Source: a virus
Strand: one strand, 5' to 3'
Virus record (IMG/VR): IMGVR_UViG_3300020582_000006
Coordinates: 21,314 to 85,313 of that record
Length of the DNA: 64,000 nt
Under the pieces are notes generated by a model. That model had not been told where the DNA came from and searched no databases. It saw nothing but the letters and a program-made list of their open reading frames with translations. Shown one piece after another: positions 5,215 through 24,513 of the stretch (positions within the stretch are counted from its first letter, which is position 1; each line of letters starts with the position of its first letter). Both the position numbers and the translations under genes were made by a program.

Positions 5215-5574
5215 TTAGTGCTGATAGGGCGGCGTCGCCGGCGCGTGCTCTTTGGTACCGGGCGCCGGCTTGTAGCCCGTGATGTCGTATACCGACTGGC
5301 AATCCACATGACTTCTCAATTCGAGAACCGTCGCCATCTTGTCGGCCTCGTTCGCCTTCGCCAGCGCCGTGATCACGCCGTCCGTGTCGCCGCAGACATA
5401 GACCAGTCTCATCGCCGTGCGAAAGTCTTCGCCGGTCATGGTCATGTGATCGGCGGGAGCCGGTATCTGATGCGGAGGCGGCAGATCCGAGTGATTGATG
5501 CCGTTGTCAGTCAGCTGGGCGAACAGCTGTACCGCAGCCAGTGCGATCAGCGGGTATAGGACTTGCCGGTTCAT
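5215..5574 (-). CDS. Secreted/periplasmic hypothetical protein
   Basis: Signal peptide MNRQVLYPLIALAAVQLFAQ and ATGA overlap with the upstream gene. Confidence 0.55.
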   Translation of the reverse strand: MNRQVLYPLIALAAVQLFAQLTDNGINHSDLPPPHQIPAPADHMTMTGEDFRTAMRLVYVCGDTDGVITALAKANEADKMATVLELRSHVDCQSVYDITGYKPAPGTKEHAPATPPYQH

Positions 5575-10204: not shown

Positions 10205-10210
10205 GTGTTG

Positions 10211-11110
10211 TTATCCTTTCTTGCGCTGGCTTACCGTAAAGTCGACGACGCAGCGCATACCCGGGACGTTGAATCCGATAGGTTTGACCGAGTTCGCGTA
10301 CTTCGCGATGGCTGAATAATCTATTGTCACCCATTGCGGCGACACCTTACCGTCGATAATCCCCTGCAGGAACACTTTCAACGCGGCCAGTTCGCCTTTC
10401 GGGTCGTACAACTCGCCGGTGTATTTCGGCGCGGCTGACATGCCTCTCGGCAGCACAATCGGCGGCGGCGCGGGTATCGGCGCGGGCATCACAACCGGCT
10501 CCTGCGGGATGACGATCCGCTCCGGTTCGGGAATCGAAGCAAGGATGTGCTGTTCGGAGACGGACTCCGACTGGTCAATCAGCCGCTCAATGCGTTCGGC
10601 GTGATCGCTGAACATCTCTTCATTCACGCGATGCTCGAGGACCTGATGTTCCGCCCGCTGCTCGATCTGGCGTGAGCGTTCTTCCTGTTCGCGCCTCAGC
10701 CGGATATCGCGCTGGCGCTGTTCCTCTTTGAACTTCTCCGCTTTCAGGAAGGAATTGACCTTCTGACTCAGAATCCGGTTCTCCAGTTCGAGCGGATCCA
10801 TGACATCGTGTTCCTGCTTCAGGATGAGGTTTTTGGTCTTGTTGATATTGGCCTTGATCTCCTCCCAGTTGAACAGGCGGCGCGATTCGGATTGCAGGAT
10901 GCGGTTCGCGTGCAGGCGCTGGCCTGCGAGATTCAGGCTCTGTTGATCGGTGACTTCGAGCGCGATCGCCGCCATGACGCGCGGCGTCGTGTTCGGAGCC
11001 TTGCCGGGTTCGGGCGCCACGGTCGTAAGAATGACCTCTGTTGTCAGCTTATCGACGTCTATGGCCACCAGTGAATCAGGTTCAGTGTCTTGTGTCGTTT
11101 GTGTTGTCAC
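10211..11110 (-). CDS. Coiled-coil phage protein of the recombination module
   Basis: Charged helical centre and C-terminal .VPG. motif. Adjacent to recT. Confidence 0.6.
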   Translation of the reverse strand: MTTQTTQDTEPDSLVAIDVDKLTTEVILTTVAPEPGKAPNTTPRVMAAIALEVTDQQSLNLAGQRLHANRILQSESRRLFNWEEIKANINKTKNLILKQEHDVMDPLELENRILSQKVNSFLKAEKFKEEQRQRDIRLRREQEERSRQIEQRAEHQVLEHRVNEEMFSDHAERIERLIDQSESVSEQHILASIPEPERIVIPQEPVVMPAPIPAPPPIVLPRGMSAAPKYTGELYDPKGELAALKVFLQGIIDGKVSPQWVTIDYSAIAKYANSVKPIGFNVPGMRCVVDFTVSQRKKG

Positions 11111-11760
11111 TTCGTCTCCTCGGGAAAAACTGTCTTGCGAAACCGTGCGATGGCGCGTTCGAGCGCCGCGAGGCCGCCCTCTTCTTTCGAGGCCACCAGT
11201 TCGAGCGAGGGCAGGCCGGTGTCAATCGAATGCTCGACCTCTTCCCGCGTGGCCTTGCGGCCGTTCGCGTACCATTCCACCGATTCCGGCTCACCCATCT
11301 GAATCAGATAGCCATGATTGAAGGGCTTGAATATCTCGTAATGGCGCGTGTTCCAGAGCATAGCCACGCCTGGATTGCGCGCCAGCACGAAGCCCGGCGA
11401 CTTATGCGCCAGCTTCGCGTTATTGACCAGCTCATCTTCCCGGCGCACCTGCCGGGGATTACTGAGAAACGGGCAGTTCAGGGCCGACCACAGGGCGCAG
11501 TCATAATGCGACGGCGGCTCGGAGCTGGTGCGGTTGATCCCGCACATCGGGCCGGCGACAAAGGACTTGTGGATGCCCAGTTGCCCGCCGCAGACCCAAC
11601 ACAGCTTCTGTCTGAGCGCCATGACGAGCTTGTCCGGATTCATCAGCCGGAACTCAGGCTTGCCGTCCAGCCATTCGACAAACCACGGCACCGGACCGTG
11701 GACCGGATCAAACGGCAGGGCTTTCATTCGTTCGGGAAGCGTTTCCAGATTGATTGTCAT
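11107..11760 (-). CDS. Conserved Zn-binding hypothetical phage protein
   Basis: PVPWFV, LCWVCG and EPPSH..CA.WS...CPFL motifs. Confidence 0.7.
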   Translation of the reverse strand: MTINLETLPERMKALPFDPVHGPVPWFVEWLDGKPEFRLMNPDKLVMALRQKLCWVCGGQLGIHKSFVAGPMCGINRTSSEPPSHYDCALWSALNCPFLSNPRQVRREDELVNNAKLAHKSPGFVLARNPGVAMLWNTRHYEIFKPFNHGYLIQMGEPESVEWYANGRKATREEVEHSIDTGLPSLELVASKEEGGLAALERAIARFRKTVFPEETK

Positions 11761-11975
11761 ATCGTGATCCTGCAGAGCGGGCAGTGTTCGCCCGGTGGCG
11801 GCGGTTCTCGTCGCGGCTTCGACATTTGCTCACCATTCAGCCAGGATTTGATCCAGCCTTCAAGCACCGGCCCCATCTTGCGGCCCTCCCGCGCCAGCCG
11901 TGACTGGAATTCATTCAGCAAAACTCTTTCGATCCGGAATCCGGTTTGCTTCGAGTCGTCTCTTAGTCTGGCCAT
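11757..11975 (-). CDS. Small ribbon-helix-helix-like DNA-binding protein
   Basis: Beta strand (QTGFRI) followed by two helices, with a C-terminal CxxC. Confidence 0.45.
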   Translation of the reverse strand: MARLRDDSKQTGFRIERVLLNEFQSRLAREGRKMGPVLEGWIKSWLNGEQMSKPRREPPPPGEHCPLCRITI

Positions 11976-11987
11976 TTTAATTGTCCT

Positions 11988-12629
11988 TTAAACCATAGCC
12001 TGTTGTGCCCATATAGCCTGTTTTTTTCGGCTTTCGGTGAGCGCCCAGAGGAACGTATCGAAGTGCTTGCGGAAGGTTGAGAACGGATACCAGTGCAGCT
12101 TGAACGTACCGTCCTTTTTCAGCTGCACAACCAGACGGCGATAGCCGTAACAGGCATAAGGGCCGACGCAGGCCTGCGCGTAACTGGCCAGCTGCGGCCC
12201 CCAGGACTCGGTTTCTTCGCCTGTCTTCCAGTCGAGGATCGTCCTGTCGGCGCCCCGGTACAAACCCTTCACGTCGAGCATGCCGATATAGCGGAAGCGC
12301 GGACAATAGACAATGTGCTCGATCAGTTCGGGAACAAAGCCCGACTCGATCATGAACTTGCGCCGCGCGACCAGATAAGGCTCGATCTCAGGCGCTACCG
12401 TCGCCGGATCGAGGTCATCCTCCATCTCATAGTGGATGGCGCGATGCACCGCCGTGCCGCGCTCCTGCGCATACTGCAGGACGTCTCGCGGCACGCGTGA
12501 GAAGTCCGAGATCCCGGCGTCTTCGAGCACCTGCGTGGTCGAGCGCGTTACGCTCCCGTCGACCGTGTAGATATGGCCAGCGGGCCGGAATGCGATTACC
12601 GGATTGTCGATGCGGGGATCGACCAGCAT
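11988..12629 (-). CDS. PD-(D/E)XK exonuclease (RecB/Cas4-like), probable RecT partner
   Basis: S.TQVL, RGTAVH, E...Y.G.LD, ILDWKTG and QLASY motifs. Confidence 0.85.
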   Translation of the reverse strand: MLVDPRIDNPVIAFRPAGHIYTVDGSVTRSTTQVLEDAGISDFSRVPRDVLQYAQERGTAVHRAIHYEMEDDLDPATVAPEIEPYLVARRKFMIESGFVPELIEHIVYCPRFRYIGMLDVKGLYRGADRTILDWKTGEETESWGPQLASYAQACVGPYACYGYRRLVVQLKKDGTFKLHWYPFSTFRKHFDTFLWALTESRKKQAIWAQQAMV

Positions 12630-12806
12630 TTATGCGGTCTTCTTCTGTTTTCGTCTGTCGAGGAACTCGCGCAGCGCCTGGCTGACCACGTACTCGCGGT
12701 CCATATTCCCGTTGGCCTTGCAGTAGTCTCGCAACTCATCCACCAGATCCGAAGGCAATCGGGGATGGATCCGCTCCAGAGTAAGCTCCTCTTTGTTCTT
12801 TGCCAT
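12630..12806 (-). CDS. RHH (CopG/Arc-like) regulator, 58 aa
   Basis: Manual translation MAKNKEELTLERIHPRLPSDLVDELRDYCK...VVSQALREFLDR. First gene of the leftward arm of a divergent region. Confidence 0.65.
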   Translation of the reverse strand: MAKNKEELTLERIHPRLPSDLVDELRDYCKANGNMDREYVVSQALREFLDRRKQKKTA

Positions 12807-12954
12807 GCAGCCTCTATCCTATTACGCACCTGGACATCAAGGCAACACAGAAGTAAACACTATGTTATAGTTACCAACGATGTTTTTAAAGGGAGAGAAA
12901 AGCTTGAAAAATAGCCACGGACAAGGAACCGAAACTGAATGGAGTTAACGTTAA

Positions 12955-13407
12955 ATGAACAATAACGCATCCCGATTTGAGGCAATGGCCATGCAATCAC
13001 TTCTGCCCGGTTTAACATTCGCGGTCGAAAGCGCGCTCGAACTGCTGAATACGACTCGCGCTGTTCTCGGGCTCGAACCTGTACTGATCCGGAATGGCGA
13101 CATTCGGGAATCCCGGCCAAGGCGCGGGCGCCCTCGCAGAGCAGCCGACGAACCCGAAGTGCAGGAGGAGTCAGAGACGGCCGAGACTCTCGCAGTCGTC
13201 GCAGCGCCGCGCAAAGCCAGAGCAAAACGGAAACAATGGACGGCGAAGCAGCGCAGGGATATCGGTGAACGCACCCGGCAACGCTGGGCGGCGATGCGCG
13301 AAGCAGGCATCACGCCGCGCAATAACTCGCCTTCAACCGCCGAGGTCGAACGCGCCCTCAAGATCATCGAGCGAAGAAACAGGAAGTCCACAGCCAAGGC
13401 CGCTTAG
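12955..13407 (+). CDS. Basic putative DNA-binding protein
   Basis: AT-hook-like RRGRPRR and a basic C-terminal helix. First gene of the rightward arm. Confidence 0.55.
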   Translation: MNNNASRFEAMAMQSLLPGLTFAVESALELLNTTRAVLGLEPVLIRNGDIRESRPRRGRPRRAADEPEVQEESETAETLAVVAAPRKARAKRKQWTAKQRRDIGERTRQRWAAMREAGITPRNNSPSTAEVERALKIIERRNRKSTAKAA

Positions 13408-13418
13408 AAAGGAACTCT

Positions 13419-13811
13419 ATGAACCGTGTGAACATCGAACCCAAGCGACAACACGCCGTGCGTATTTCCAATCGTCAGTACGGTCAGCTTCGCGCGATCC
13501 TGAATTCACCGAACGCGACCGCGGGCATCGAGGATATTTCCGCCTTCAACCAGCTCACTCTCGGCGCGAACAAGCGCCGGGGATTCATCGCCGAGACACG
13601 TCGCAAAAACGGCATTACTCTGACCTTTGAAGGCCGTCAGGTACTGAAAGCGTTCGATCAGGCCGACTTCATGCGCAAAGTGGCGAGCCTGAATTTTTCC
13701 TCTTATCTGAGGCTGGAGCCGCGCATGATTCACTTCGCGCCGCTTGAGCGTAAAACAGCTCAGACCGCGAGAGAGTATCAAGAGGCCCGGCGCGCGACTA
13801 CTGCGGCATAG
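13419..13811 (+). CDS. Hypothetical protein
   Basis: AAAGGA RBS. Confidence 0.6.
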   Translation: MNRVNIEPKRQHAVRISNRQYGQLRAILNSPNATAGIEDISAFNQLTLGANKRRGFIAETRRKNGITLTFEGRQVLKAFDQADFMRKVASLNFSSYLRLEPRMIHFAPLERKTAQTAREYQEARRATTAA

Positions 13812-13817
13812 AAGCGA

Positions 13818-14195
13818 GTGAAGACCATCTTTTGTTGCGGCTGTCAGCGCGAGATCGAGGCGCGGCTGACATACGGGGCCGAGATCTATCCCCACCGGCG
13901 CGATCTGTGGCTGCTGCCGTTCTGGAAGTGCGACGGCTGCCAGAACTATGTCGGCTGTCATCACAACTCACGCCAGCCGCACAGTCCACTGGGTAATATT
14001 CCGACCGCGATCATGCGGGCGCTGCGCGTCGAGATCCACTCGGTGCTCGATGGCTTATGGAAGCACAAAGGGTTCCGCCGCGGCGACGTTTACCGGCGTC
14101 TTTCGCAGCATATCGGCCGGCCCTACCATACTGGTGAGATAAGAACAGTCGAGGAAGCCCTTGCCATAAAGGGTTTCCTCGCGGACTTCAGATGA
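13818..14195 (+). CDS. DUF3268-like zinc-finger protein
   Basis: GAEIYPHRRDL, FWKC..C..YVGCH, PLG and H..LD.LW motifs. Confidence 0.8.
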   Translation: MKTIFCCGCQREIEARLTYGAEIYPHRRDLWLLPFWKCDGCQNYVGCHHNSRQPHSPLGNIPTAIMRALRVEIHSVLDGLWKHKGFRRGDVYRRLSQHIGRPYHTGEIRTVEEALAIKGFLADFR

Positions 14196-16578
14196 TCCTC
14201 CGTGCGCGGGATGTCGTGTTCGTCCTGGTCGCCGTGACACTCAGTCTCGCGATATGGGGGATCATCTGGCTCGCGAAACATCCCTGCACCCGCTCGGTGA
14301 CGCATCGCGTCTGGGTCGATCAAATCACGACTTACGTGGATACCGGCGGCGGGATGAGGAATGCGGACGGAGAGTTTATTCCCGGGACGGGAATCAAGGT
14401 ACCCTTCACGACACCGGCCCACTTCGAGGATCAAACTATCTGTATGGAGCGCCGCCCATGAGGAGTTACACCTACAGGCGCAAAGGAAACCGGCTCATCG
14501 ACGGCGATACGCCGCCGATGCCGCCGCCCACGCTTTCTCCCGCGCAGGAGAAGGCCGAACTGCTGCGCCTCGCGCGGCTTTGTGAAGAGGGCTGGTCGAC
14601 GATGACGGCGATCCCGCTCAAAGCCCCGCCGATGCCAAAGCGCAATTACCCGATCCCCGAACGCTGGCGGAGAGCTGTGTGATGCCACCTGTAACATCGC
14701 ATGTTACGCCTTTTCAGGCGATCCAGGTCCTGTTGTCATTACTCAGCCTGTTCTTTATTGTGATGGCGGCCTGTATCTCAGTCCGGGCCCTGCGCACGCT
14801 GAAAAAATTCATCAGGCTGCAGGGCCGCATCAACGATCTGACGGATGAGCGGCTGCAGATGCTCGAACGGGAGGAGTACCGGTGATAGCGGTCCGTGTGT
14901 TCCTGTCGATGACGCTGACCGTGCTCGCCGCGCTCGAGTGGTACACGGTCCTCGAGCGCGTCTCGCTCGACTGGTATGCGGACCAGCTGGTCGCTCAGGT
15001 GGAGATGGAGACGGGCCGCAAGTACCCGGCTGCCGCCAAAGCGCAGCTCTACGCCATCGTGAACAAAGCGCCGTCCTACTCGAAAGTGCTGCCGCCGGCG
15101 CTGGTCAACACCGTGACGGCCGCGGGCGCGTGGGCGCTGACATTCTGGGCGATTCGGCGCAGAGATCGCGAGGAACAGGAACAATCAAAACAAGATGACC
15201 TGCAGTTATTGCGACGAAGAGATTCTCAAACATGAGCCGGTCGGCTTCAACGGCTCGATGCATCAGGAGTGCGCCTGCCGGGCCATTATGGGATCTGCGG
15301 CTCACCAGATGCACATATGCCACTGCTTCGGCGGCCGGGGGGAAGACCCGCCTGAATTCACGGCACGCCAGGGCGCGAAACTGGCATGGGAGACGTTCCA
15401 GGCACTTAAGAAAAAGAGAGAACAGGCCAGCCTGAACTGAGATGAAGATCATTCACATACTCGGCACCGCATCAGGCCAGCCTCATCCCTATGACGACAT
15501 GTACCTGCTGCAATACGATCCCACCGTGCGCCCGGATGGTATGATCCTGCTCGAAGTCGTCTCGGATCCGGCCTGCGCCAAACGCTTCGCCGACGCCGGC
15601 GAGGCGCTCGAAGAGTGGCGGCGTTCCAACGGCAGGCTGCGGCCGGACGGGAAGCCGGATCGCCCGCTGACTGCCTTCACCGTCGATATTATTGACGCGC
15701 CATGACACGCAAACGAGTGGTCCAGATCCAGCGGCTGTCTATCTGTGAATGCGGCTTTCCGCTGCTCAAAGTGGAAATCGGGATCGGCGCTGAGTACACG
15801 ATCGATCTCGACAGCGTGAGCACGAACGGCTGGCACCTGAAGTGCGGCGGCTGCGGTACGGTGATCCGCGATATCACGACGGTGATGGCGTCGTCGACGC
15901 TCGATCCGAATCGTCCGCCCGCGCGCCTGCCTTACGCGATCTTTCTCGGCAGCCGCGTGGCGCCGGTCCTTACAACTCCCACCCGACAGGACAAAACCCA
16001 ATGACCGAACACGAAGTCATGATTTGCGCCCCGGCAGACGGGCTATGGACCATACCCGGCTCAGTTTTCGATAAGATCTGTGTGCGCTGCGCCGCGCCCG
16101 TCATGATGGCCCCGTCCGGCGTTCGTTACATGGAAACTCACACGGTCGAAGTGATCTGCATGATCTGCTTCGATCCGCAGGGCCGCGACCGCAACGTCGC
16201 GAAAAAGATCCGCCTGACCGCGCCGGTCAGCGTCATCAATGGAGAACTTATGAACGTCACCCGGAACTACCGCGCGAGGACCACGAATTGACGCCGCCGA
16301 TGGGTTACTCGCGGGCATCTGAAGCCGAAGATGCCGACGTGATCCTGCGCATGTCCGAAAACGACTACATCATGCTGCTGACGTCTCTGGGTATGGCTTA
16401 TGCTTCAGGCCTTCAGGAATCCCTGCCGATGATCAACCGCATCAACGCAGGCAATCCGGACTTTTCGCCGTATGAATCCTCGGAAGACCTCGAAGCGAGA
16501 GCGGCGCAGACGGTCGCGATGCTCCGGAAACTAATGGAAGGGACGGACTCATTTCATGTGGGAATGCGCTCAGTGTAG
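14192..16578 (+). other. Run of small, translationally coupled hypothetical genes (14192-14461, 14458-14682, 14679-14885, 14882-15235, 15195-15440, 15442-15705, 15702-16004, 16001-16291, 16288-16578)
   Basis: Mostly 4-bp start/stop overlaps. Several have TM helices or CxxC motifs. Confidence 0.6.
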
Positions 16579-17752
16579 TCTGACGCGAGAGAAGCCGGTA
16601 AGCCGGCCGCCGATGGGCTGGAAACGGCGCGGCAAAGCCATCTATTGCAGGGACTGCTGGCGCAAGCTCTACGTGCTGCGGGCTGTCACGATCCCGGTCG
16701 TGAGCCCGCTGACGCTCAAGTACAAAGCTGATGAAACGCTTCACCCCTGCGACTGGGATGAGTTCGGGAAACGCCTGCGCGAGCAATGGGCGCTGATCAC
16801 CCAGGCTTCCAACTGGATGATGACCGAGATGTACATGCGGGATGACCGGTCCCGCGACAAAGGCAAGCTGCAGCCGATGCCCGGCGTCTATCTCTATCCC
16901 GAGACGCGCAAACAGTTTCCCGGCATGGCCTCGCAGACCACCGCGGCCCTCGAGAACCAGATCGGCAAGAAATACCGGGCGAAGCGTTTCGATGTGATCT
17001 GGACCTGCCGCGCCAGCCTGCCTACCTTCCGCTACCCCACGCCTTTGCCGGTACCTCATCAGGCATGGTCAATAAGACTTGACGATAACTGCCCGCTCGT
17101 CTCCGCGCCTATTGGAGATGCGCGTGTCGAATTTCGCCTGCGCAACGGCCATCAGTTCCGCCGGCAGCTGCTCGCCGTGAAGCAGATCATCGCGGACGAA
17201 GCCGAACCCGGCCAGATGGATCTCTACCGCCAGGGCAAATCGGTGATGTGCAAGCTGGTCGCCTGGCTGCCGCGCCGTCCGGTCGAGACGAAGATCGAAG
17301 GCACGCTGTTCGTACGCGCGGATGCGCAGGCGCTGCTGGTGGCTCTGAACGTCAAGGATGACCGTCTGTGGACCTACCATGGCGATCAGGCGCGTCGATG
17401 GTCAGCAGCGCACCGCCGGTTGCTCCAGCGCCTTGCAGACGACAGCAAGGCCGAACACAGGCCCACTGTGCCTTTCCACGCGCGGCGCGAGGCCGCGGCC
17501 CTCAAATATCGGGATCGCATGTCGAGCCTGACTCACCAGATCGCCGCTATGACTGTGAACTACGCCTTACGGCGGAAGTTCGCCGCCGTGCGCTATGACG
17601 ACACCGCCCGGGACCTGTTCTGCCCCCACTTTCCCTGGCACATCCTGCGGCTGAAGCTCGCTGAGAAATGCGATGCGGCCGGCATCGAGTTCCATGCGGT
17701 GACACCCGGGGAACCGGAAGAAGTCTTGCACGAACCGGTAATGGAGGAGTAA
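16556..17752 (+). CDS. Nuclease-dead TnpB/Cas12f-like RNA-guided DNA-binding protein
   Basis: N-terminal Zn ribbon (CAQC...CRDC), S.PTFR.P.P and a bridge-helix-like region. THQIAAMTVNYA...AVRYDD and FPWHILRLKLAEKCDAAGIEF align by eye with the TnpB RuvC-II region. RuvC-I reads LFVRADA rather than GxDxG. The C-terminal Zn finger and RuvC-III are absent. Confidence 0.7.
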   Translation: MWECAQCSLTREKPVSRPPMGWKRRGKAIYCRDCWRKLYVLRAVTIPVVSPLTLKYKADETLHPCDWDEFGKRLREQWALITQASNWMMTEMYMRDDRSRDKGKLQPMPGVYLYPETRKQFPGMASQTTAALENQIGKKYRAKRFDVIWTCRASLPTFRYPTPLPVPHQAWSIRLDDNCPLVSAPIGDARVEFRLRNGHQFRRQLLAVKQIIADEAEPGQMDLYRQGKSVMCKLVAWLPRRPVETKIEGTLFVRADAQALLVALNVKDDRLWTYHGDQARRWSAAHRRLLQRLADDSKAEHRPTVPFHARREAAALKYRDRMSSLTHQIAAMTVNYALRRKFAAVRYDDTARDLFCPHFPWHILRLKLAEKCDAAGIEFHAVTPGEPEEVLHEPVMEE

Positions 17753-17915
17753 ACTTTTGGTTTCCGCGCCACCGACAGGCGCAGGCCGCTTATTCGCTGG
17801 AAACGCTTGCCGATCCAGTCGACGCGGCAAAGCTGCTGTTAAGGGTTCCTGATATGGGCGCAAGCCGCAGCCGGGAAAACGATCATTGAAAGCAGAATCG
17901 ACCGATTCGGTACAA
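17753..17915 (+). ncRNA. Putative omegaRNA/sgRNA-like scaffold plus guide
   Basis: Stems GTTTCC/GGAAAC, GCGCC/GGCGC, TTGCCG/CGGCAA and GCTGC/GCAGC, plus a GGC-GCAA-GCC tetraloop. The scaffold ends in ATTGAAAG (17885-17892), like type V repeat 3' ends. Confidence 0.45.
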
Positions 17916-17929
17916 GACACCGGGTAGCG

Positions 17930-19343
17930 GTCGTCTCGGCATCAACTCCGACTGCTGATCGGATCGGGCTTGTTGTGGGCCTCCTACCTGATCGTTCGGT
18001 ATGGCTGCTCGCGCGACGTTCGGGTGGGATTCGTTCGGTTCATATCTGGATTCGTTCGGGGGGCTCGCAACTCGTCGGATCGGCACAAGAGACGGCAGAT
18101 CGGTCGGTTGGAACAGCCAGATAGGTCGGGGCAACGCCGGATGAGGCTTTCGGGTGCTTAATCCAGATTCCCGTCGGGAAAGATGAGTCAACCGGTTCGG
18201 GGCCTGCTACCTGATCGGTCGGAAACCCGTCGCCGAACTGATCGGGAGATGATCGGGCGTTCGGGGGGATAGGTCGGGGTACTCGCAGTCCTCGGGTCGG
18301 GAATAGTTCGGGAAACGATCGGGAACTGATCGTGTCGGGTCTTGCATCTGTCCACCGTCTCGGGTTGCGAGTCATTCGTTCGGGTGGTCTCGATGGCTGG
18401 TCGTCTCAGGCCCTGAAAGACCAGATCGTTCGGGTTTCGCGGATGTGGTTCGTTCGGGTGTTGCATCTGCAACCATCGTTCGGGTTTTCAACTTCGTTTC
18501 GGCGGGGACTGTCGGACCACCGAAGGCTGGTCGTTCGGTCGCCACTGCCGCTCAGATCGTTCGGGACACAACTGGGAACTGATCGTGTCGGGTCTTGCAT
18601 CTGTCGATTCGGGATTTTCGGGTCACGACCATTCGAGATCGGTCGGGTGGGGCAAGAACAAGATCGGTCGGGGTAAGTAGCGAGATCGGTCGGTATCCGA
18701 TTTGTTCGGGTCTTTAACTCGTCCTCTGGCCTGTTCGTTCGGGGGATGTTAGCGGAGATCGGTCGGGCATCCTGGCCTGTTCGTTCGGGAAATAGCCTAA
18801 GCGGAGATCGGTCGGGCAACTTGAAAGAGGCCTCTGTATTTCGGGCACCCCGTCAAGGAGTTCGTTCGGGGATATATCGGCCGGGAAATGGACAAGCCGG
18901 CGTCGAGATCGGTCGGGCTGTAGCAAGGAGTGCCGGTCGGGTCGGTGGAATCAGCAGCCGAAGCTATCAGGCGTCGAGATCGGTCGGTCAAGGAATGGTT
19001 TTTGATCTTTCGGGGCCTGGGCGAAATATCTGCAATCGGTCGGGGAAAGATTTGGATCGTTCGGTTCGCCGCGACCGTACCGGGCGTCGTGATCGGTCGG
19101 GCCAAGCTCATGATCGGTCGGGCTGTGGAGTGATTTCATCGGGATTACCGGCGTTTGCGTGATCGGTCGGGATTTGTTCGTCAGTGAGGATCGGTCGGGG
19201 CTCGCGCTGTTCCCAGGCTCTCGTCAGCGGTCATCGGGATTACCGGCGATCCGGGTCGGTCGGTCAGAAAAAGCTCGAGTGCCTTTTTCCGGCGGGGTGT
19301 TTCAGCGGAGCTTTGTTTCGGTTCAATGAATTGATCGTTCGGT
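17930..19343 (+). repeat. Strand-biased array of ~55 degenerate (GA)TCG(G/T)TCGG(G) motifs with variable spacers, period mostly ~21-27 bp
   Basis: TCGG cores at 18035, 18056, 18080, 18104, 18126, 18150, 18174, 18197, 18219, 18242 and onward to 19339, on the + strand. No credible ORF. Confidence 0.85.
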
Positions 19344-19420
19344 ATCTGTCACTTTTCCACAGGTCGGCGCGCCGACTACTGGTTCTTTCTACAGGAGTTA
19401 ATACAGGTCAATAAGGAAGG

Positions 19421-19516
19421 GCGCCCCTAAATCTACGTATGCGCGCCCCTAAATCTACGTGCCCGGGTTCGCATCGCATTGATTCGACTGAAACCAAAGC
19501 GCCCCTAAATCTACGT
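19421..19516 (+). repeat. RepA iterons (3 x GCGCCCCTAAATCTACGT), probable oriV
   Basis: Identical 18-mers at 19421, 19443 and 19499, just past the repA stop. DnaA-box-like TTTTCCACA at 19353. Confidence 0.8.
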
Positions 19517-19534
19517 GCAAAAATGCAGAGATTC

Positions 19535-20521
19535 TCAGGGTTTTCCTCGTTTCCCCGCTGCCGGGCGAATCGCCTGGCCTGGTCGGACGACGAGGAAATC
19601 GGCCGTCAGCTCTGCCGGACACGCAGGCCAAAGTCCGCGAACGGTATCCATCCATTTCGATATCTGTTCCCGGAATCGACGTGGTCGCGCGTAGTCTATT
19701 ACCCCTAATTGAAATTCCAGTCCCGCTTCTCCGAATATGGGGATGAGTTGCTCCTGCGTTGCCGTGAAGCAGCGCCAGATGAGCCAACACGTGAAATCCA
19801 GTGCGCCCGGAGCATGCGCCAGCTGCCGGACTATGTTCATATCAATCGGGATCGGGTGGTTTTTTACTTCGTTCCAGAACTGCTCTGACAGCACGATGAC
19901 GTTCTGAAAGTCTTCACCCGGCAATCCGGGGTGGTCGCCGTTTGAATACCAAAGCCGCATCTGATCGAAGAAATTGAACCGTGACCGATCGATGTATCTG
20001 GCCTGTCCTCTTGTGCCGTCGGTACTGAAGTAGATCGTGGCATCAAAAAGGCGCTCGAAGCCCTCGACGATGCGTTTGTAGTGGAACCCGCTGGTACTGA
20101 GTCCGAACTCGCGGAGCATCTCAGCTGCGCTGTCGAAGGTAACGCGTCGGTTCTGTTTGATCACAGCAAGAGTACTGATCCATAAGGGAATAAGCCGGTC
20201 CTGACCGAAGGGAAGCCCCAGTTTGGAAGTGGTCGCTATGCGTAATGAGAACCGCCCGTTGACTCGCGTATACTCCTTGACCCCTGCAGCTGGCCGCCGG
20301 ATAGGAAGCCCGCACAGAACGAATGGACGCGTGTTATAGCCTATCGATTGTCGGCCTTCCTCTCTCGCCGCCCGGACCAGTTCGATACCTTCGACGCGCT
20401 TCTGAAATTGCTTTGATACGCCACGAAGTTCGCGTCGGACCGGCTCGGCTGGAAGATCCAACCCGTTGACGAAGTCCGTATCCCCTGCTCTCACCAATGC
20501 CGGTTTTATGTTGTCTTTCAT
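19535..20521 (-). CDS. repA: Plasmid replication initiator protein A (RepA_C-like family)
   Basis: FVLCGLP.RRP, R.NG, GLPFGQDRL, V.LSE.F..E...HPIPID and ALD...WL..R motifs. ATG at 20521 overlaps the upstream stop. Adjacent iterons. Confidence 0.85.
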   Translation of the reverse strand: MKDNIKPALVRAGDTDFVNGLDLPAEPVRRELRGVSKQFQKRVEGIELVRAAREEGRQSIGYNTRPFVLCGLPIRRPAAGVKEYTRVNGRFSLRIATTSKLGLPFGQDRLIPLWISTLAVIKQNRRVTFDSAAEMLREFGLSTSGFHYKRIVEGFERLFDATIYFSTDGTRGQARYIDRSRFNFFDQMRLWYSNGDHPGLPGEDFQNVIVLSEQFWNEVKNHPIPIDMNIVRQLAHAPGALDFTCWLIWRCFTATQEQLIPIFGEAGLEFQLGVIDYARPRRFREQISKWMDTVRGLWPACPAELTADFLVVRPGQAIRPAAGKRGKP

Positions 20522-20883
20522 AGCTCGTGGCACTCGAACAGACTCCCCTGGCTGTAGATGGAACGTAACGCCTCGCGCGGGATCTCCCATGCTGGCACAC
20601 TCGCGTACTCGATCTCGGGCAGCAGCCACAGCTGGCCGGACTCGCGCGCCCGCCGGCGGCGCATGACGGCGATCTTATGCCGCGCGTCGGCCCGGGAGTG
20701 GCAGGGAGCGCAGCGGATCCGCACGCTCGATGTCCGGGGATCGTGCGTCTCATGCGTGAGCTGCACGTACCGCGGAATCGGGCACAGACAGTCGCGGCAG
20801 ACGGCGCCGCGCGAGGCGATCAGGGCCAGCCGGTACCGCTGCCACTCCGGACCATAGAACTGCCTGTAAGACGCCCGGATCAT
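20518..20883 (-). CDS. HNH-like endonuclease
   Basis: Y..EW, CRDC, LTHETHDP and C..CH...D motifs. Confidence 0.6.
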   Translation of the reverse strand: MIRASYRQFYGPEWQRYRLALIASRGAVCRDCLCPIPRYVQLTHETHDPRTSSVRIRCAPCHSRADARHKIAVMRRRRARESGQLWLLPEIEYASVPAWEIPREALRSIYSQGSLFECHEL

Positions 20884-21149
20884 CGCTTTACGTGGGCTCT
20901 CTTCTTCCCAAGCGGCACTGTCGGCACAATCAGGCCGGACAGTATGTCGGCTTCTCTCGCCAGCGCGATCGGATTGGGCCGCACCGCTCCCGTGAACCAG
21001 CTGGAAAGCCCGGCTGCAGCTTCGGCGCAGCCTGAGCACAGTGTTTCGTCATGCCACGAGCACGGCGGATCGCAGGCGTTCTCTTCCGTGCAGGCGCAGA
21101 CTCTGCAGGCACGTTGTTTCGGCTTCGCCGGGAGGCGCGGTTTTCTCAT
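20880..21149 (-). CDS. Small Cys-rich phage protein
   Basis: CRVCACTE.NAC...CSW....LCS.C motif. Confidence 0.6.
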   Translation of the reverse strand: MRKPRLPAKPKQRACRVCACTEENACDPPCSWHDETLCSGCAEAAAGLSSWFTGAVRPNPIALAREADILSGLIVPTVPLGKKRAHVKR

Positions 21150-21673
21150 CGGGCAGCCTCGGCTTTCTTCGGGAACAGCCCCATGAGGATGCCTTGATAG
21201 CCGCTGTGTTCGTCGGCAACCGTGACTAACGGATCGCCGACCAGTTCGATCCGGCCGTCGACGATCTTGTATTCCTGAATGGCAGTCTGCTGGTAATCGG
21301 CTGTCTCGAGCGAACAGGCGACAGCCTCTCGTCTGGGGATTATCCCCAGGTTCATGCAATCCTCGATCGTCAGCTGGAATACCTCGCGGAAGGCTTGCAG
21401 TTCCGGCCGCGTACTGAATGAGATCAGCGTATCGCTCAACATGATCACGGCCTGGATCCCGCCCGACTGGACGCGCCGCCGCAGGTCTTCGCCCAGTTCA
21501 ATCTTGCACTCCCGATTGTTGGTCACCTCGTCGTCAACCAGGACGACGTCATAGGAGCCGTCCTGGCGGATCAGATGGAACATCTGCGTCAAATCGCCCT
21601 TGTTCAGGACGATCTGGTCGATGCCGTAGTTCAGCGTTCTCGCTGCCATAGCGATCAGTTCCTCTGTCGTCAT
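21146..21673 (-). CDS. Hypothetical protein
   Basis: Coupled ORF in the leftward operon. Confidence 0.6.
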   Translation of the reverse strand: MTTEELIAMAARTLNYGIDQIVLNKGDLTQMFHLIRQDGSYDVVLVDDEVTNNRECKIELGEDLRRRVQSGGIQAVIMLSDTLISFSTRPELQAFREVFQLTIEDCMNLGIIPRREAVACSLETADYQQTAIQEYKIVDGRIELVGDPLVTVADEHSGYQGILMGLFPKKAEAAR

Positions 21674-21678
21674 GGGCC

Positions 21679-21903
21679 TTAATCCATGTGCTCCAGCTTC
21701 TCGGCCGCCGACTGCACGATAAACGCGCTGCGGCTGATGCCCAGGCGTCTGGCCCCCTTGTCGATGCGGCCAAGCAGAACCGGATCGATCCGTATCATCG
21801 TGGGTTTCTTGTTGGCCTGTTCGTCGGGCAACCTGCCCGACTTCGAGATGAAGGCTTTGGCCTTGCGTTCTTTGACTGCGGTGGGATTTCTAGCGATTGC
21901 CAT
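21679..21903 (-). CDS. RHH partition adaptor (ParG/CopG-like)
   Basis: TMIRID..LL.RID..A...GISRSAFI is a clear RHH pattern. Overlaps the parA 3' end. Confidence 0.8.
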   Translation of the reverse strand: MAIARNPTAVKERKAKAFISKSGRLPDEQANKKPTMIRIDPVLLGRIDKGARRLGISRSAFIVQSAAEKLEHMD

Positions 21904-22552
21904 TCGATACCTCTTGTATATCGTTTGTATAGAGGAATTTTACAAGCTGATTCATCTCGTCCGCGGCCTTCTGGTCCTCGCGGTATTCGGCCACGGACAG
22001 GCCCAGCGCGGCCGCGTTCGGGAAGGCCTTGCGCCGTCCGATCATGCAGGGGGCGATCTCGATGCCGGCGATCTCGCGCAAAGCGGCCAGCGCCGCCTCG
22101 TTGTCTTTGCCCTGCGGATCGGCCTCATTGATGACGGCGACGGCGCGCAGCGACTCATTGATCTCGCGGGCTTCCGCTACCAGCTCGCATGTCTCTTCGC
22201 TGCGCCACAGATCAAAGCTGCGCGGCTTGAGCGGGATCAGGACGGTATCGGCGACCGTGAGCGCCGCCCGCAGGCTGCCGGTCGCGTCCTCGCCGCCGAT
22301 GTCGATCACGATGTCGGCGAACTTCGAGGTCAGCTGCCGGACCTGAGTCCGGATATTCGCGCCGCGCAAAGCGACGGCGGTGTAACCCGACTTGCCCTTC
22401 GCTGTCGTGCGCAGATCGGTGAACGCGAGCGCCGCGCCCTCGGCGTCGATCAGCAGAACGTCCCGGCCGTTCGCGGCTAACGTGATTGCCAGATTCACTG
22501 CCAGGGTCGTTTTGCCAACGCCGCCTTTCAGGTTGCCGACCGTAAAAATCAT
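21890..22552 (-). CDS. parA: ParA family (type Ib, ParF-like) ATPase
   Basis: Deviant Walker A KGGVGKTT, IVID, AD.VLIP and G.SV.EY motifs. Confidence 0.9.
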   Translation of the reverse strand: MIFTVGNLKGGVGKTTLAVNLAITLAANGRDVLLIDAEGAALAFTDLRTTAKGKSGYTAVALRGANIRTQVRQLTSKFADIVIDIGGEDATGSLRAALTVADTVLIPLKPRSFDLWRSEETCELVAEAREINESLRAVAVINEADPQGKDNEAALAALREIAGIEIAPCMIGRRKAFPNAAALGLSVAEYREDQKAADEMNQLVKFLYTNDIQEVSNGNR

Positions 22553-22731
22553 GCAGGCTCCTCTTCAATCGGGATTTCATCAGAAGCCCCGGTGACCCAT
22601 TCGATGCCCTGTTTCACGCCCTGTTCGTAGGACATCCCCGGCACGGAACTGCCGCCGTGTTCCTCCCACGCGTTGGCGGAGTTGAGAACATTGTCGATTT
22701 CAGAATCGGTTCGTTTGATCTTGTATGCCAT
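22549..22731 (-). CDS. Small hypothetical protein
   Basis: AAGGAAG RBS, ATGA overlap with parA, and a PGMSYEQGV...W motif. Confidence 0.6.
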   Translation of the reverse strand: MAYKIKRTDSEIDNVLNSANAWEEHGGSSVPGMSYEQGVKQGIEWVTGASDEIPIEEEPA

Positions 22732-22795
22732 TGCTTCCTTTCCACATGGACCGATTATCAAACGAGTGACAACAGATATACAAGCGCAATCGGTT

Positions 22796-23275
22796 ATGAT
22801 ACGACAAATGATGAAACCGTTCACCGAAGGCACGCCGCCGCCCGCCCGCTTCAATGCAGGCGAACGGGCGTTCTATAACGGCAAGTATCAGGCGATCCTG
22901 AAAGACGCCGGTGGCATGGTAATCCTTACCATCCGGCGCGAAGACCGGCGGCCGGTCACCGACTGGCGAGACGTGCAGTGGATCAAGAACCAGTTACTCG
23001 GTCCGGAGGTGGAGGCTGTGCAGCTCTTCCCGGCCGAGTCGCGGCTGGTCGATACTTCGAACCAGTTCTATCTCTATGCCTCCAAGCAGGAAGGCTATCG
23101 CTTCCCCTTCGGCTTCACTGAGCGGCGGGTAGCTGAGGGCATCAGCGTCAAGCTCGAAAACTGTGCGCCGTCACAGCAGCGGCCGTTCGCCGATCACGTC
23201 CGGCCCGCGGATCTGAAAGAGAGCGAGGAACTGCTGGCGCAGGAACTCCGCGAGGTCGGGATCGAACCGCTGTGA
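22796..23275 (+). CDS. Conserved phage protein (DW..Q.IKN..GPE.EA...PAESRLVD family)
   Basis: Motif shared with the paralog at 51299-51874. Confidence 0.7.
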   Translation: MIRQMMKPFTEGTPPPARFNAGERAFYNGKYQAILKDAGGMVILTIRREDRRPVTDWRDVQWIKNQLLGPEVEAVQLFPAESRLVDTSNQFYLYASKQEGYRFPFGFTERRVAEGISVKLENCAPSQQRPFADHVRPADLKESEELLAQELREVGIEPL

Positions 23276-23568
23276 TCTGTGACATCTGCCTTGCGCCGCA
23301 CGAAGAACTGTGGGGATTCTCAGTCGCCGGCTTCTATGAACCGTTTACCGATGTCGTGAACGTTGCCGGCGAGTGGGGAGTCTGCGACGAATGCAAGCTG
23401 CTGATCGACGCGCGGGACGCCGCCGGGATTGTAGCTCGCGTCAAGACTGACAGCGCCCGGGTGACGCGGCTTATCGCGCCGTTCTATGTGATGCTGATCG
23501 CCAACATCACGGGGCCGCTGGTCCGGATTCGCGACCAGACGACCCCGCTCTATGGCATTATCGAGTGA
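23272..23568 (+). CDS. Zn-binding hypothetical protein
   Basis: CDIC...W.VC.EC..LI, similar to the ORF at 36543-37058. Confidence 0.55.
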   Translation: MICDICLAPHEELWGFSVAGFYEPFTDVVNVAGEWGVCDECKLLIDARDAAGIVARVKTDSARVTRLIAPFYVMLIANITGPLVRIRDQTTPLYGIIE

Positions 23569-23919
23569 GCTTCCAGTTCCTCTGAAATCAGGTGCGGTTT
23601 TCTGCAATCGGGATACGCGAGTCCCGAAACAGAAAAGCCAGCGGTTCACGGCCGCTGGCTGGTTTCAATCCGGGGACTGAAAGGCGGTGGTTCTATGTAC
23701 ACCGTTAGACTGATGGTCACGATCCATATGATCGTGATCGTGATAACGCTGTCGTTCCGTAAGGGCCGATAAGCTGAATCAGGGGAAGCTGGGCAGCAAC
23801 CCGGCTTTCCCTCAGTCTTGAAAATACCACAGACGGGATAAAATCTGGTCTCAGGCTGCCTAGTCCGGCCAGACGACAAGCGGGAAACCTCACCCGCTGG
23901 CAGCCTGCCTCGAAGAACA

Positions 23920-24513
23920 TCATTTCCATAACTTCTCGAACCGGGCCGCATTCGTAGCGGTATACTTCACCGTGTGCTCGATCTTGCGATGGCCGAGGTA
24001 GTCCTGAATGAGCCGGGTGTCGGCGCCCTGATCGGCAAGGGCGAAGCCGCAAGCGTGCCGCAGCATGTGCGGGTGGGCCGTGAAGGGCAGGTCAGCCGCT
24101 GCGCTCGCGGTCTTGAGCAGATAGTTCACGCTCGACCGGTGCAGAGGCTTGCGCTGTTCCGAGACAAAGAAGGCTTTGACGGTCGCCGGCACGTTCATGG
24201 CTGTCCGGACTTTGAGCCAGGTCCTGATCGCCCGCACTTCCTCGACGCGCAGCGGGTGAGTGGTCGAGAGCCCGCGCTTGAGGCGTTTGACATGCAGGAT
24301 GCGGCTTTCGGTGTCCACATGGTCGAGCGGCAGGCTGCAGATCTCCGACACGCGATAGCCGTGGCGGAAGCTGAGAAGCAGCAGGCAGCGATCGCGCTCC
24401 CGGTTGCGGCTGATCTCGGAGGCGGCGTCGATGAGTTTCTCGACCTCGCGTGCGGTAAGGTGCAGGCGGTCTGATTTGTCGGGTTTTTCGTCTTGTTTTG
24501 CGTTGTTTCCCAT
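23920..24513 (-). CDS. FimB/FimE-like tyrosine recombinase (catalytic domain only)
   Basis: RHG.RVSE, RLK.GLSTTHPL and HPHMLRHACGFALADQGADTRLIQDYLGH..I.HTV.Y. The catalytic R-K-H-R-H-Y set is intact. Confidence 0.9.
   Translation of the reverse strand: MGNNAKQDEKPDKSDRLHLTAREVEKLIDAASEISRNRERDRCLLLLSFRHGYRVSEICSLPLDHVDTESRILHVKRLKRGLSTTHPLRVEEVRAIRTWLKVRTAMNVPATVKAFFVSEQRKPLHRSSVNYLLKTASAAADLPFTAHPHMLRHACGFALADQGADTRLIQDYLGHRKIEHTVKYTATNAARFEKLWK

What the first reader, a model, noticed from the sequence alone, without database searches (positions are those of the whole stretch)
17753..17915. Single-guide-like RNA ending in ATTGAAAG directly after the dead TnpB
Seen in sequence: about 140 nt with multiple stems and a GCAA tetraloop, ending in GATCATTGAAAG and followed by CAGAATCGACCGATTCGG. 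TTGAAAG/ATTGAAAC are common 3' ends of CRISPR repeats, including those of Cas12k. The putative guide contains CGACCGAT, the reverse complement of the array core ATCGGTCG, so it might pair with the array DNA or RNA. That last point is speculative because only 8-9 nt match. No long match to the guide was spotted elsewhere in the window.
Basis: partly seen in the sequence, partly recalled or inferred. Interest (0 to 1): 0.7.

Follow-up and report, generated by a model that had tools for sequence, protein, structure and literature searches.

The report
Guide-RNA scaffold of phage dead Cas12f
A structured RNA gene of about 147 bases lies right after a non-cutting mini-Cas12f gene in a soil phage-plasmid and is most likely that protein's built-in guide-RNA scaffold, part of a widespread but undescribed family of RNA-guided DNA binders.

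Summary
The sequence features are there, and the core idea, a single-guide-like RNA behind a dead TnpB/Cas12f-like gene, holds. The proposed 3' end and guide do not.

ORF 16556-17752 folds like Cas12f (Foldseek E 6e-17) and has no working RuvC site.

A covariance model finds the same ~150-nt RNA in 48 of 53 sources, always downstream of the gene on its strand. Covariation is strong: 93.6% of cells paired against 68.7% shuffled, 0 of 500 shuffles as high. The fold includes a pseudoknot.

The scaffold runs 17764-17910. TTGAAAG (17886-17892) lies in the loop of the last hairpin. A near-identical sister phage differs at 17892-17893, is identical on to 17910, then diverges completely. The guide therefore starts at 17911.

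In relatives this last hairpin is the repeat of CRISPR-like arrays. Three spacers match their own genome or contig perfectly.

Contigs from four soil RNA libraries cover 17770-18829 and bridge both proposed ends.

No target was found for the window's guide. How the downstream TCGG array is used is unresolved.

Other notes of this scan flagged this locus on the same genome, none on other DNA.

The parts
16556..17752 (+). Gene for a 398-aa nuclease-dead Cas12f-like protein, with an N-terminal CxxC...CxxC zinc ribbon and a truncated RuvC.
   Evidence: AF2 model with pLDDT 92.8. Foldseek best match AsCas12f 8j12_B at E 6.3e-17; a natural dCas12f (9n9c_A) at 1.4e-14. The family profile hits Cas12f 9nzq at E 7.3e-8, and that alignment puts the RuvC-I Asp on R254 and the RuvC-II Glu on the variable position 348; the protein ends before the zinc finger and RuvC-III.
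17764..17910 (+). Guide-RNA scaffold, comparable to a natural fusion of tracrRNA and repeat.
   Evidence: Match to model R1: 90.7 bits, E 8e-20. Covariation. Identical in sister phage L046 except for one inserted hairpin, one small hairpin and two loop bases. Covered by RNA-library contigs from 17770.
17766..17782 (+). Stem 1: GCGCC / GGCGC around the loop ACCGACA.
   Evidence: Helix 1 has 5 of 5 pairs with changes on both sides and 97.8% of cells paired.
17785..17828 (+). Stem 2: outer GCCGC/GCGGC, inner CTGGA/TCCAG, around the conserved loop ACGCTTGCCG (17803-17812).
   Evidence: Helix 3 has 7 of 7 pairs with changes on both sides. The outer stem forms >=4 bp within its own sequence in 36 of 45 rows, against 51% of cross-pairings between different sequences.
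17832..17877 (+). Pseudoknot core. Stem 3 is 17832-17836 with 17867-17871. It crosses the PK stem, 17846-17851 (TTCCTG) with 17872-17877 (CGGGAA), and encloses the small GCAA hairpin 17857-17866.
   Evidence: Stem 3 forms >=4 Watson-Crick bp within its own sequence in 44 of 45 rows, against 31% of cross-pairings. The PK stem forms >=5 bp in 31 of 45, against 9%. PK helix 4 has 5 of 6 pairs with changes on both sides.
17872..17910 (+). Terminal, repeat-equivalent hairpin. It comprises the PK 3' strand, a 5' arm (CGAT 17880-17883), a loop that holds TTGAAAG (17886-17892), a 3' arm (ATCG 17897-17900, then ACCGA) and the tail TTCGG (17906-17910).
   Evidence: It aligns with the 36-38-nt repeats that recur in the arrays of relatives. 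The base of the hairpin covaries: helix 5 has 4 of 4 pairs with changes on both sides. Fold.
17911..17939 (+). First guide or spacer segment. This is inferred; its length is unknown.
   Evidence: The sister phage has unrelated sequence here, between identical flanks. In relatives the spacers with perfect targets start at the equivalent position.
17911..19343 (+). One-strand array of about 50 units ending in ...TCG(G/T)TCGG(G). The motif resembles the 3' half of the terminal hairpin.
   Evidence: 29 of the 36 exact TCGKTCGG sites in the window lie at 17992-19342, all on the + strand; 9.5 are expected by chance. Unit list. The two phages differ by insertions and deletions of whole units. RNA-library contigs run from the scaffold into the array, to 18829.

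Best explanation
17764-17910 encodes the scaffold of a natural single-guide RNA for the nuclease-dead Cas12f-like protein encoded just upstream.

Structure. The RNA folds into stem 1, a two-tier stem 2 with the conserved ACGCTTGCCG loop, a pseudoknot (stem 3 crossing the TTCCTG/CGGGAA stem) and a terminal hairpin. The terminal hairpin is the counterpart of a type V CRISPR repeat.

Guide. The guide begins at 17911, directly after the tail TTCGG.

Action (inferred). The protein-RNA complex binds DNA that matches the guide and does not cut it. It would act as a roadblock or silencer of genes in other mobile elements or in the host.

Shown here: the protein fold and the loss of the catalytic site; the conservation, covariation and position of the RNA; the 17910/17911 boundary; presence in RNA libraries; and, in relatives only, CRISPR-like arrays with perfect targets in the same genome.

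Inferred: binding of this RNA by this protein, the length of the guide, the target and the outcome of binding, and the use of the downstream TCGG array as a source of further guides.
For: Protein:
- pLDDT 92.8.
- Cas12f chains fill Foldseek ranks 1-21. The best is E 6.3e-17, and a natural dCas12f scores 1.4e-14.
- The family profile hits Cas12f at E 7.3e-8 and 'nuclease-deactivated Cas12f' at 4.5e-4.
- RuvC-I Asp aligns to Arg, RuvC-II Glu to a variable position, and the C-terminal zinc finger and RuvC-III are absent.

RNA:
- Model R1, built from 23 flanks, gives 51 strong matches in 48 of 53 sources. All are on the gene's strand and downstream of the gene, and 28 of them were not seeds.
- 93.6% of cells are paired against 68.7% after shuffling (0 of 500 as high) and 29-44% when the partners are slid. 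265 cells changed on both sides.
- The crossing stem 3 was not part of the model. It still pairs within its own sequence in 44 of 45 rows, against 31% of cross-pairings.

Boundary:
- L046 has 100% protein identity over residues 167-398.
- In the terminal hairpin L046 differs only at 17892-17893. It is identical through 17910 and unrelated from 17911 until identity resumes. The arrays differ by whole units.

Family function:
- 11 loci carry 2-13 full repeats with 33-40-nt spacers.
- In L020, 2 of 6 spacers match the same genome perfectly (34 and 35 nt), inside integrase/excisionase and HTH-regulator regions.
- In L021, 1 of 3 spacers matches perfectly (37 nt), 7.6 kb away on its own contig.
- No Cas1 in 0 of 5 virus records, 3 of which are 100% complete.

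RNA libraries:
- Contigs from 4 soil metatranscriptome runs lie on 17770-18829 with no differences in the scaffold.
- Four contigs bridge 17892 and 17910: 17770-18309, 17773-18152, 17770-18026 and 17861-18350.
Against: - No target was found for the window's guide or its array spacers. In the phage's own 85-kb genome, prefix matches are at chance, and 16-mers with <=2 mismatches give 5 hits against 1.7 for shuffles. There are 0 exact hits in IMG/VR. The host genome is unknown.
- The window's terminal hairpin is weaker than in relatives: it has a 4x5 internal loop and an energy of -7.6 kcal/mol.
- The whole-RNA fold energy is no better than shuffles.
- Contigs cannot show strand, ends or processing, and RNA libraries can carry DNA.
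- No promoter-like site was found.
- The 5' flanks of the three known protospacers (TTTA, TTCA, GTGC) give no common PAM.
- Binding of the RNA by the protein was not tested.
Confidence: 0.8

Rival explanations
1. tracrRNA-type use. The scaffold has no working guide in cis. Its terminal hairpin opens and one arm pairs in trans with the 10-11-nt 'half repeats' of the TCGG array. The array would then supply many short guides to one scaffold.
For: - The array motif is the 3' half of the repeat hairpin.
- In L004, L005 and L014 the locus's own array motif is the best partner of its own hairpin's 5' half: -15.6, -14.2 and -14.9 kcal/mol. Foreign motifs give -3.8 to -14.0.
- L007 and L001 mix full repeats with truncated repeats that keep the 3' end.
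- Whole units are gained and lost between the window and L046.
- RNA-library contigs join the scaffold and the array.
- A 9-nt guide is reported to work for one TldR (PMC13622181, passages read).
Against: - In the window itself the array motifs do not pair clearly better with the 5' half than controls do: -7.35 against -6.3 and -6.5. They pair instead with the loop and 3' arm.
- L001 does not fit.
- Some units are only 11 nt long, which leaves no spacer.
- No targets were found.
- No mature RNA ends are known.
Confidence: 0.3
2. The RNA ends at TTGAAAG (17892), and the next 18 nt (17893-17910) are a guide that pairs with the neighbouring array.
For: 17899-17906 is the exact reverse complement of the array core. 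The array motifs pair with 17893-17910 far better than controls do: mean -10.3 against -5.1 and -6.0 kcal/mol.
Against: - 17893-17910 is conserved in position and pairing across the family, as the loop and 3' arm of the repeat hairpin.
- The sister phage changes 17892-17893, keeps 17894-17910, and diverges only from 17911.
- Spacers with real targets start after the hairpin in relatives.
- The complementarity is 8 nt and internal to the segment. It is not at the scaffold-proximal end, where type V guides have their seed (established knowledge, recalled).
Confidence: 0.05
3. The element is a decaying relic. The protein, its RNA and a degenerate array are still transcribed but no longer function in this phage.
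For: - The terminal hairpin is degenerate.
- The array has irregular units and no regular spacers.
- No targets were found.
Against: - The ORF is intact with all family-invariant residues.
- The gene's 3' part and the scaffold are near-identical in two phages whose arrays and neighbouring rep module differ.
- Similar short-motif arrays recur in independent loci: L001, L004, L005 and L014.
- The region is present in four RNA libraries.
Confidence: 0.1
4. The flank and the array belong to the plasmid replication origin, as RepA iterons. The apparent RNA is only a 3' UTR or terminator.
For: A RepA_C/RPA initiator gene lies at 19535-20629(-), 190 nt beyond the array.
Against: - Separate 20-nt direct repeats of iteron type lie next to repA, at 19421-19518.
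- L046 keeps the scaffold and array but has an unrelated sequence in place of the rep side.
- 0 of 14 neighbouring proteins, RepA included, have a homologue in the 32 related loci, whereas the dCas12f-like gene is in 32 of 32.
- The scaffold covaries as an RNA.
Confidence: 0.03

Closest known systems
Natural nuclease-dead Cas12f (dCas12f) with single guide RNAs, Bacteroidota (Hoffmann et al., Nature 2026, PMC13472631; passages and figure legends read)
   Same: - A small Cas12f-fold protein with a C-terminal truncation that removes part of RuvC.
- A stem-loop scaffold RNA with the guide at its 3' end.
- A scaffold related to CRISPR repeats.
- The paper also mentions a separate cluster of dCas12f genes next to CRISPR arrays, with covarying gRNAs upstream of the arrays.
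- 9n9c is a top structural match.
   Different: - Sequence similarity is weak: E 4.5e-4, over the N-terminal half only.
- No sigma-E or HTH partner appears among the 10 neighbouring ORFs scanned.
- The hosts are Acidobacteriota and their phages, not Bacteroidota.
- The scaffold is fused to the first repeat of an array.
- Short-motif arrays are present.
- I could not see the paper's figures or supplements, so some overlap with its 'distinct cluster' cannot be excluded.
CRISPR-Cas12f (type V-F) tracrRNA:crRNA and engineered sgRNA
   Same: - The best structural and profile matches.
- A multi-stem scaffold with a pseudoknot. The repeat contributes one strand of the pseudoknot and then a second duplex just before the guide. 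That this is also the Cas12f architecture is recalled, not tested.
- The guide lies 3' of the repeat.
   Different: - The nuclease is dead.
- There is no cas1: 0 of 5 virus records.
- The tracr part and the first repeat form one continuous natural RNA gene, starting 12 nt after the stop codon.
- Spacers match the element's own genome or contig.
TldR (TnpB-like nuclease-dead repressors) and their gRNAs (bioRxiv 10.1101/2023.11.30.569447, listing only; PMC13622181, passages read)
   Same: - A dead RuvC protein with an adjacent scaffold-guide RNA.
- Some are encoded by phages.
- Repression by steric blocking.
- Very short guides can work: 9 nt is reported.
   Different: - The fold and profile are closer to Cas12f than to TnpB: TnpB chains score 1e-10 or worse.
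- Relatives carry CRISPR-like arrays, which the passages I read of the TldR papers do not mention. 'CRISPR array' occurs 0 times in PMC13622181.
Cas12m (type V-M) binding-only interference (PMC11013384, abstract read)
   Same: RNA-guided DNA binding without target cleavage, acting as a roadblock against mobile elements.
   Different: Cas12m is larger (chains of about 590 residues) and a distant structural match (E 1e-6 to 2e-5). It keeps RuvC for crRNA processing (recalled).

Membership tests
Cas12f (type V-F effector) | Cas12f/TnpB-type fold | tested here: met
   Foldseek best match 8j12_B at E 6.3e-17, and ranks 1-21 are all Cas12f chains. The family profile hits Cas12f 9nzq at E 7.3e-8.
Cas12f (type V-F effector) | Intact RuvC Asp-Glu-Asp site with a C-terminal zinc finger | tested here: not met
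   The HMM alignment puts the GVDMG Asp on R254 (V253 and T255 are nearly invariant) and the Glu on position 348, which varies. The protein ends about 15 residues after the RuvC-II strand.
Cas12f (type V-F effector) | Adjacent CRISPR array of full repeats and spacers | tested here: inconclusive
   The window has only one full repeat-like hairpin plus an array of short motifs. Eleven relatives have 2-13 full repeats.
Cas12f (type V-F effector) | Adaptation genes (cas1) | tested here: not met
   PF01867 is found in 0 of 5 virus records, the window's genome included. The control search found it in 7 of 14 reference genomes.
Natural dCas12f-sigmaE systems | Operon with an ECF sigma factor (rpoE) or an HTH partner | tested here: not met
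   Pfam scan of 10 ORFs between 12955 and 20629 found only DUF3268, a weak zinc ribbon and RepA_C/RPA. ORFs further away were not scanned for this.
Natural dCas12f-sigmaE systems | Truncated RuvC plus a single gRNA with a 3' guide | tested here: met
   That the guide is 3' of the scaffold is inferred from the conservation boundary and from the spacers of relatives.
TldR / TnpB omega-RNA | Closest relatives are TnpB; the scaffold overlaps the 3' end of the gene; IS200/IS605 context | tested here: inconclusive
   TnpB chains rank below Cas12f, at 1e-10 to 7e-7. No OrfB Pfam hit even at E <= 10. The scaffold starts 12 nt after the stop codon in the window but overlaps the stop in L018, L019 and L025. 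tnpA and transposon ends were not searched for.
Any Rfam RNA family | Match to a curated covariance model | tested here: not met
   cmscan of 15000-21000 at E <= 1 returns only an unrelated 22.5-bit hit on the minus strand at 17471-17524.

The most novel reading that the evidence does not exclude
The scaffold and the TCGG array form an ultra-compact 'half-repeat' CRISPR-like system. A single tracr-like scaffold would be loaded in trans with dozens of short guides. Each guide is preceded only by a 10-11-nt 3' half of the repeat. Units are gained and lost without Cas1, and a phage-plasmid uses the system to silence rival mobile elements or host genes. The family would then show, in living elements, an intermediate between a one-piece omega-type RNA and a tracrRNA-plus-array system.
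Probability: 0.3. Interest if true: 0.85.

Novelty: new variant of a known kind. Interest (0 to 1): 0.65.

Why it matters
The finding defines the RNA partner, with its exact ends and fold, of a large family of 400-aa dead Cas12f-like proteins that no paper found in my searches describes. The family has 1239 clusters at 50% identity at E <= 1e-3. It is found in Acidobacteriota and their phages.

If the mechanism holds, it is one of the smallest natural RNA-guided DNA binders: 398 aa plus a 147-nt scaffold, with arrays kept up without Cas1. Spacers aimed at the element's own genome or at co-resident mobile elements point to gene silencing between mobile elements rather than immunity by cutting.

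The corrected boundary (guide from 17911) is what anyone would need in order to reprogram or test the system.

Tried and rejected
**Searches that gave nothing**
- Rfam scan: nothing relevant.
- Pfam and PHROGs on the protein: nothing significant. phmmer against PDB sequences: nothing.
- Sigma-70 promoter and terminator scan of 17500-19600: 0 promoter-like sites, and 2 terminator-like sites against 3.1 expected.
- Conserved neighbours: 0 of 14 window proteins found in 32 loci.

**Target searches without result**
- The window's array against its own genome.
- The first guide against IMG/VR: 0 hits.
- Two spacers of relatives against IMG/VR: only their own arrays.
- The L016 array against its own complete phage genome and 4 other records: only itself and weak 17-19-nt hits.
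- The L028 array against its genome: nothing better than E 0.27.
- The single guides of L026, L023 and L031 against their genomes: nothing convincing. L023's best hit is 91% over 32 nt and starts 16 nt into the guide.

**Tests that were ambiguous**
- I counted the cis 3'-arm 8-9-mer downstream of the scaffold in 38 loci. The median is 2.3 per kb for a locus's own motif and 0.8 for foreign motifs, and 16 of 38 loci reach >=3 per kb. In short-motif loci the array motif differs from the cis arm, so this test is confounded.
- Duplex energies for the half-repeat model fit 3 of 5 loci and not the window.

**RNA libraries**
- Most of 12000-17600 and 18830-24000 had no cover or only a few 151-nt contigs.
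- Three contigs start at 17770, 17773 and 17770 with no loose end. No DNA run was laid beside them, so this is at most a weak hint of a 5' end.

**Considered and rejected**
- A conserved PAM could not be derived from three protospacers.

**Not seen**
- Supplements and figures of the papers were not seen. They may show whether the 'distinct cluster' of PMC13472631 overlaps this family.

**Literature searches behind 'not described'**
-, plus passages of PMC13472631 and PMC13622181.
- 'Acidobacter' occurs 0 times in both papers and in every listed hit.

Full report
**The observation.** The stop codon is at 17750-17752. A GGC-GCAA-GCC hairpin lies at 17857-17866. TTGAAAG is at 17886-17892 and is followed by CAGAATCGACCGATTCGG (17893-17910). 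CGACCGAT (17899-17906) is the reverse complement of the array core. On energy alone the stretch is unremarkable: -53.4 kcal/mol, z = -0.29, and 78 of 200 shuffles fold at least as well. No Rfam family matches it.

**The protein.** ORF 16556-17752 (398 aa) has no Pfam or PHROG hit of note. It belongs to a large family. There are 327 hits at E <= 1e-3 in the word-indexed search. In the exhaustive search there are 1239 clusters at 50% identity at E <= 1e-3, of which 995 reach <= 1e-10.
- An AlphaFold model built from 40 homologues is confident, with pLDDT 92.8.
- Foldseek ranks Cas12f chains first: AsCas12f 8j12_B at E 6.3e-17. A natural dCas12f (9n9c) scores 1.4e-14. TnpB scores 1e-10 or worse, and Cas12k, Cas12m and others are weaker still.
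- The family profile also reaches Cas12f by sequence. It hits 9nzq at E 7.3e-8 and 'nuclease-deactivated Cas12f' 9n9c at 4.5e-4.
- In that alignment the RuvC-I Asp of GVDMG falls on R254. The RuvC-II Glu falls on position 348, which varies in the family. The protein ends before the zinc finger and RuvC-III.

'Dead' is therefore supported, and the protein is nearer to Cas12f than to TnpB.

**The setting.** The window is part of an 85-kb virus record that is 82% complete. It carries RecT, exonuclease, ParB and RepA genes.

**The RNA.** I collected 32 related loci from viral contigs and Acidobacteriota-type MAGs and 21 more from metagenomes. The 3' flank of the gene is visibly conserved.
- A covariance model was built from 23 flanks.
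- It gives 51 strong matches in 48 of 53 sources, all on the gene's strand and downstream of the gene. 28 of them were not seeds.
- The five sources without a match are two that end inside the gene (L013, L064), one array fragment (L035), one with only about 170-220 nt of flank (L045), and L003, whose 327-nt flank is different.
- A 52nd match, at window 21986-22074 (19.8 bits, E 0.0096), I take as noise.
- On the resulting alignment 93.6% of cells are standard pairs. Shuffled partners give 68.7% (0 of 500 as high) and slid partners 29-44%. 22 of 24 pairs, and 265 cells, changed on both sides.
- A further stem (17832-17836 with 17867-17871) was not in the model. It still forms >=4 Watson-Crick pairs within its own sequence in 44 of 45 distinct rows, against 31% of cross-pairings between different sequences.
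- That stem crosses the TTCCTG/CGGGAA stem, which forms >=5 bp in 31 of 45 rows against 9% of cross-pairings. The core is therefore a pseudoknot.

**The 3' end.** It does drop sharply, but 18 nt later.
- Contig L046 is a sister of this phage, with 100% protein identity over residues 167-398.
- Aligned to the window, the end of the gene and the scaffold as far as 17835 match, apart from a one-base gap at 17756.
- L046 then has an extra small hairpin inserted near 17836-17840, and a changed small hairpin in place of the GCAA one.
- From 17867 to 17910 L046 is identical, except for 17892 G>T and 17893 C>A. The G of TTGAAAG is therefore itself variable.
- From 17911 the two sequences are unrelated until identity resumes in the next unit.
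- Family-wide, the columns up to ...YTNCGG(G) align and the base of the hairpin covaries. The following columns do not align.
- TTGAAAG thus sits in the loop of the terminal hairpin. The proposed guide is that hairpin's loop and 3' arm.

**What the terminal hairpin is.** In 11 relatives the last 36-38 nt of the scaffold recur downstream. This stretch comprises the 3' strand of the pseudoknot and the hairpin.
- It occurs as 2-13 direct repeats separated by unique 33-40-nt spacers. That is a CRISPR-like array whose first repeat is fused to the scaffold.
- None of 5 virus records has Cas1, and 3 of them are 100% complete.
- L020: 2 of 6 spacers match the same 8.1-Mb MAG perfectly (35 and 34 nt). 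One target lies beside integrase and excisionase genes, the other inside an HTH_3-type regulator gene. A third spacer matches 21 of 23 nt, about 800 nt from the first target.
- L021: 1 of 3 spacers matches perfectly (37 nt), 7.6 kb away on its own contig, between two divergent ORFs.
- Perfect targets in the same genome are what a non-cutting effector can tolerate.
- The spacers begin directly after the hairpin tail. This fixes the guide position in the window at 17911.
- Other arrays and single guides gave no target.
- The three 5' flanks (TTTA, TTCA, GTGC) give no common PAM.

**Expression.** Fourteen soil metatranscriptome runs hold part of 16556-19400. I laid four of them. They are coded as four studies but may belong to one campaign.
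- All four give contigs on 17770-18829 with no differences in the scaffold.
- Four contigs bridge both 17892 and 17910: 17770-18309, 17773-18152, 17770-18026 and 17861-18350.
- One loose end in X3 reads like the L046 variant.
- Contigs show presence in RNA libraries and continuity from the scaffold into the array. They do not show strand, ends or level.

**The downstream array.**
- 29 of the window's 36 TCGKTCGG sites lie at 17992-19342, all on the + strand. They form about 50 units of 11-83 nt.
- The motif resembles the 3' half of the hairpin. Similar locus-specific short-motif arrays occur in L001, L004, L005 and L014.
- L007 and L001 contain truncated repeats that keep the 3' end.
- Between the window and L046 whole units are inserted or deleted.
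- The array is not the RepA iteron set. Separate 20-nt repeats lie by repA. L046 keeps the array but has a different rep side. No neighbouring gene is conserved across loci.
- Whether the units are trans-pairing half repeats is open. The duplex test fits L004, L005 and L014. It does not fit L001, and it does not fit the window, where the motifs pair with 17893-17910 instead.
I treat that as a lead, not as support.

**Comparison and novelty.** The closest described systems are:
- the natural dCas12f guide RNAs of Bacteroidota, including a briefly mentioned cluster next to CRISPR arrays (PMC13472631, passages read);
- Cas12f tracrRNA:crRNA;
- TldR guide RNAs (PMC13622181, passages read);
- Cas12m (abstract only).

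The family fails Cas12f membership on the catalytic site and on cas1. It fails dCas12f-sigmaE membership on the partner gene. It works like those systems.

Three full-text searches found no paper on such a family in Acidobacteriota or their phages. I rate the finding a new variant of a known kind.

Other notes of this scan had flagged the same locus on this genome. None was on other DNA.

Noticed in passing
L030:1333-1345, L031 (about 5416-5428), L032:5506-5518: Three divergent chromosomal loci share the same 13 nt directly after the scaffold and then diverge, which suggests a conserved short guide. In the L031 genome (G009) the 13-mer has 3 further exact copies. All lie in the sense strand of long ORFs; Pfam on two of the three gives OMP_b-brl_4/TonB-dependent-like, and the third was not scanned. 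No further copy occurs in G012 (an unpublished genome) or in G013.
   Followed up: partly
L027:2101-2120 and L052:2631-2650: Two related scaffolds from different contigs are followed by similar first ~17 nt (14 of 17 identical) and then diverge. This is another hint of short conserved guides.
   Followed up: no
L008:1082-1257, 1336-1485, 1649-1835; L004:5194-5347 and 7289-7438: Some loci carry two or three tandem scaffold copies. In L004 the second copy has an intact hairpin and regular 72-74-nt units, while the first has a degenerate hairpin and is followed by about 40 short-motif units.
   Followed up: partly
L005:5171-5575: Here the short-motif array lies between the gene's stop codon and the scaffold (5575-5724), so the order of the parts is not fixed.
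   Followed up: no
window 19421-19518: Three copies of a 20-nt direct repeat lie just beyond the 3' end of the RepA_C/RPA gene (19535-20629, minus strand). They are the likelier iterons of the plasmid origin. The sister contig L046 has a different repeat there.
   Followed up: partly
window 17836-17840 versus L046: The sister phage has a 12-nt net insertion forming an extra GAAGC-GAAA-GCTTC hairpin. It sits at the same scaffold position where L014 and one L008 copy carry larger insertions, so this is a tolerated expansion site in the RNA.
   Followed up: no
window 8999-12629 and 34394-36187: RecT-like annealing protein, exonuclease and ParB-like genes. Together with RepA they fit a phage-plasmid lifestyle.
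   Followed up: partly
window 18303-18352 and 18556-18605: A 50-nt segment of the array is duplicated at 90% identity. One RNA-library contig joins across the two copies (table 5).
   Followed up: no
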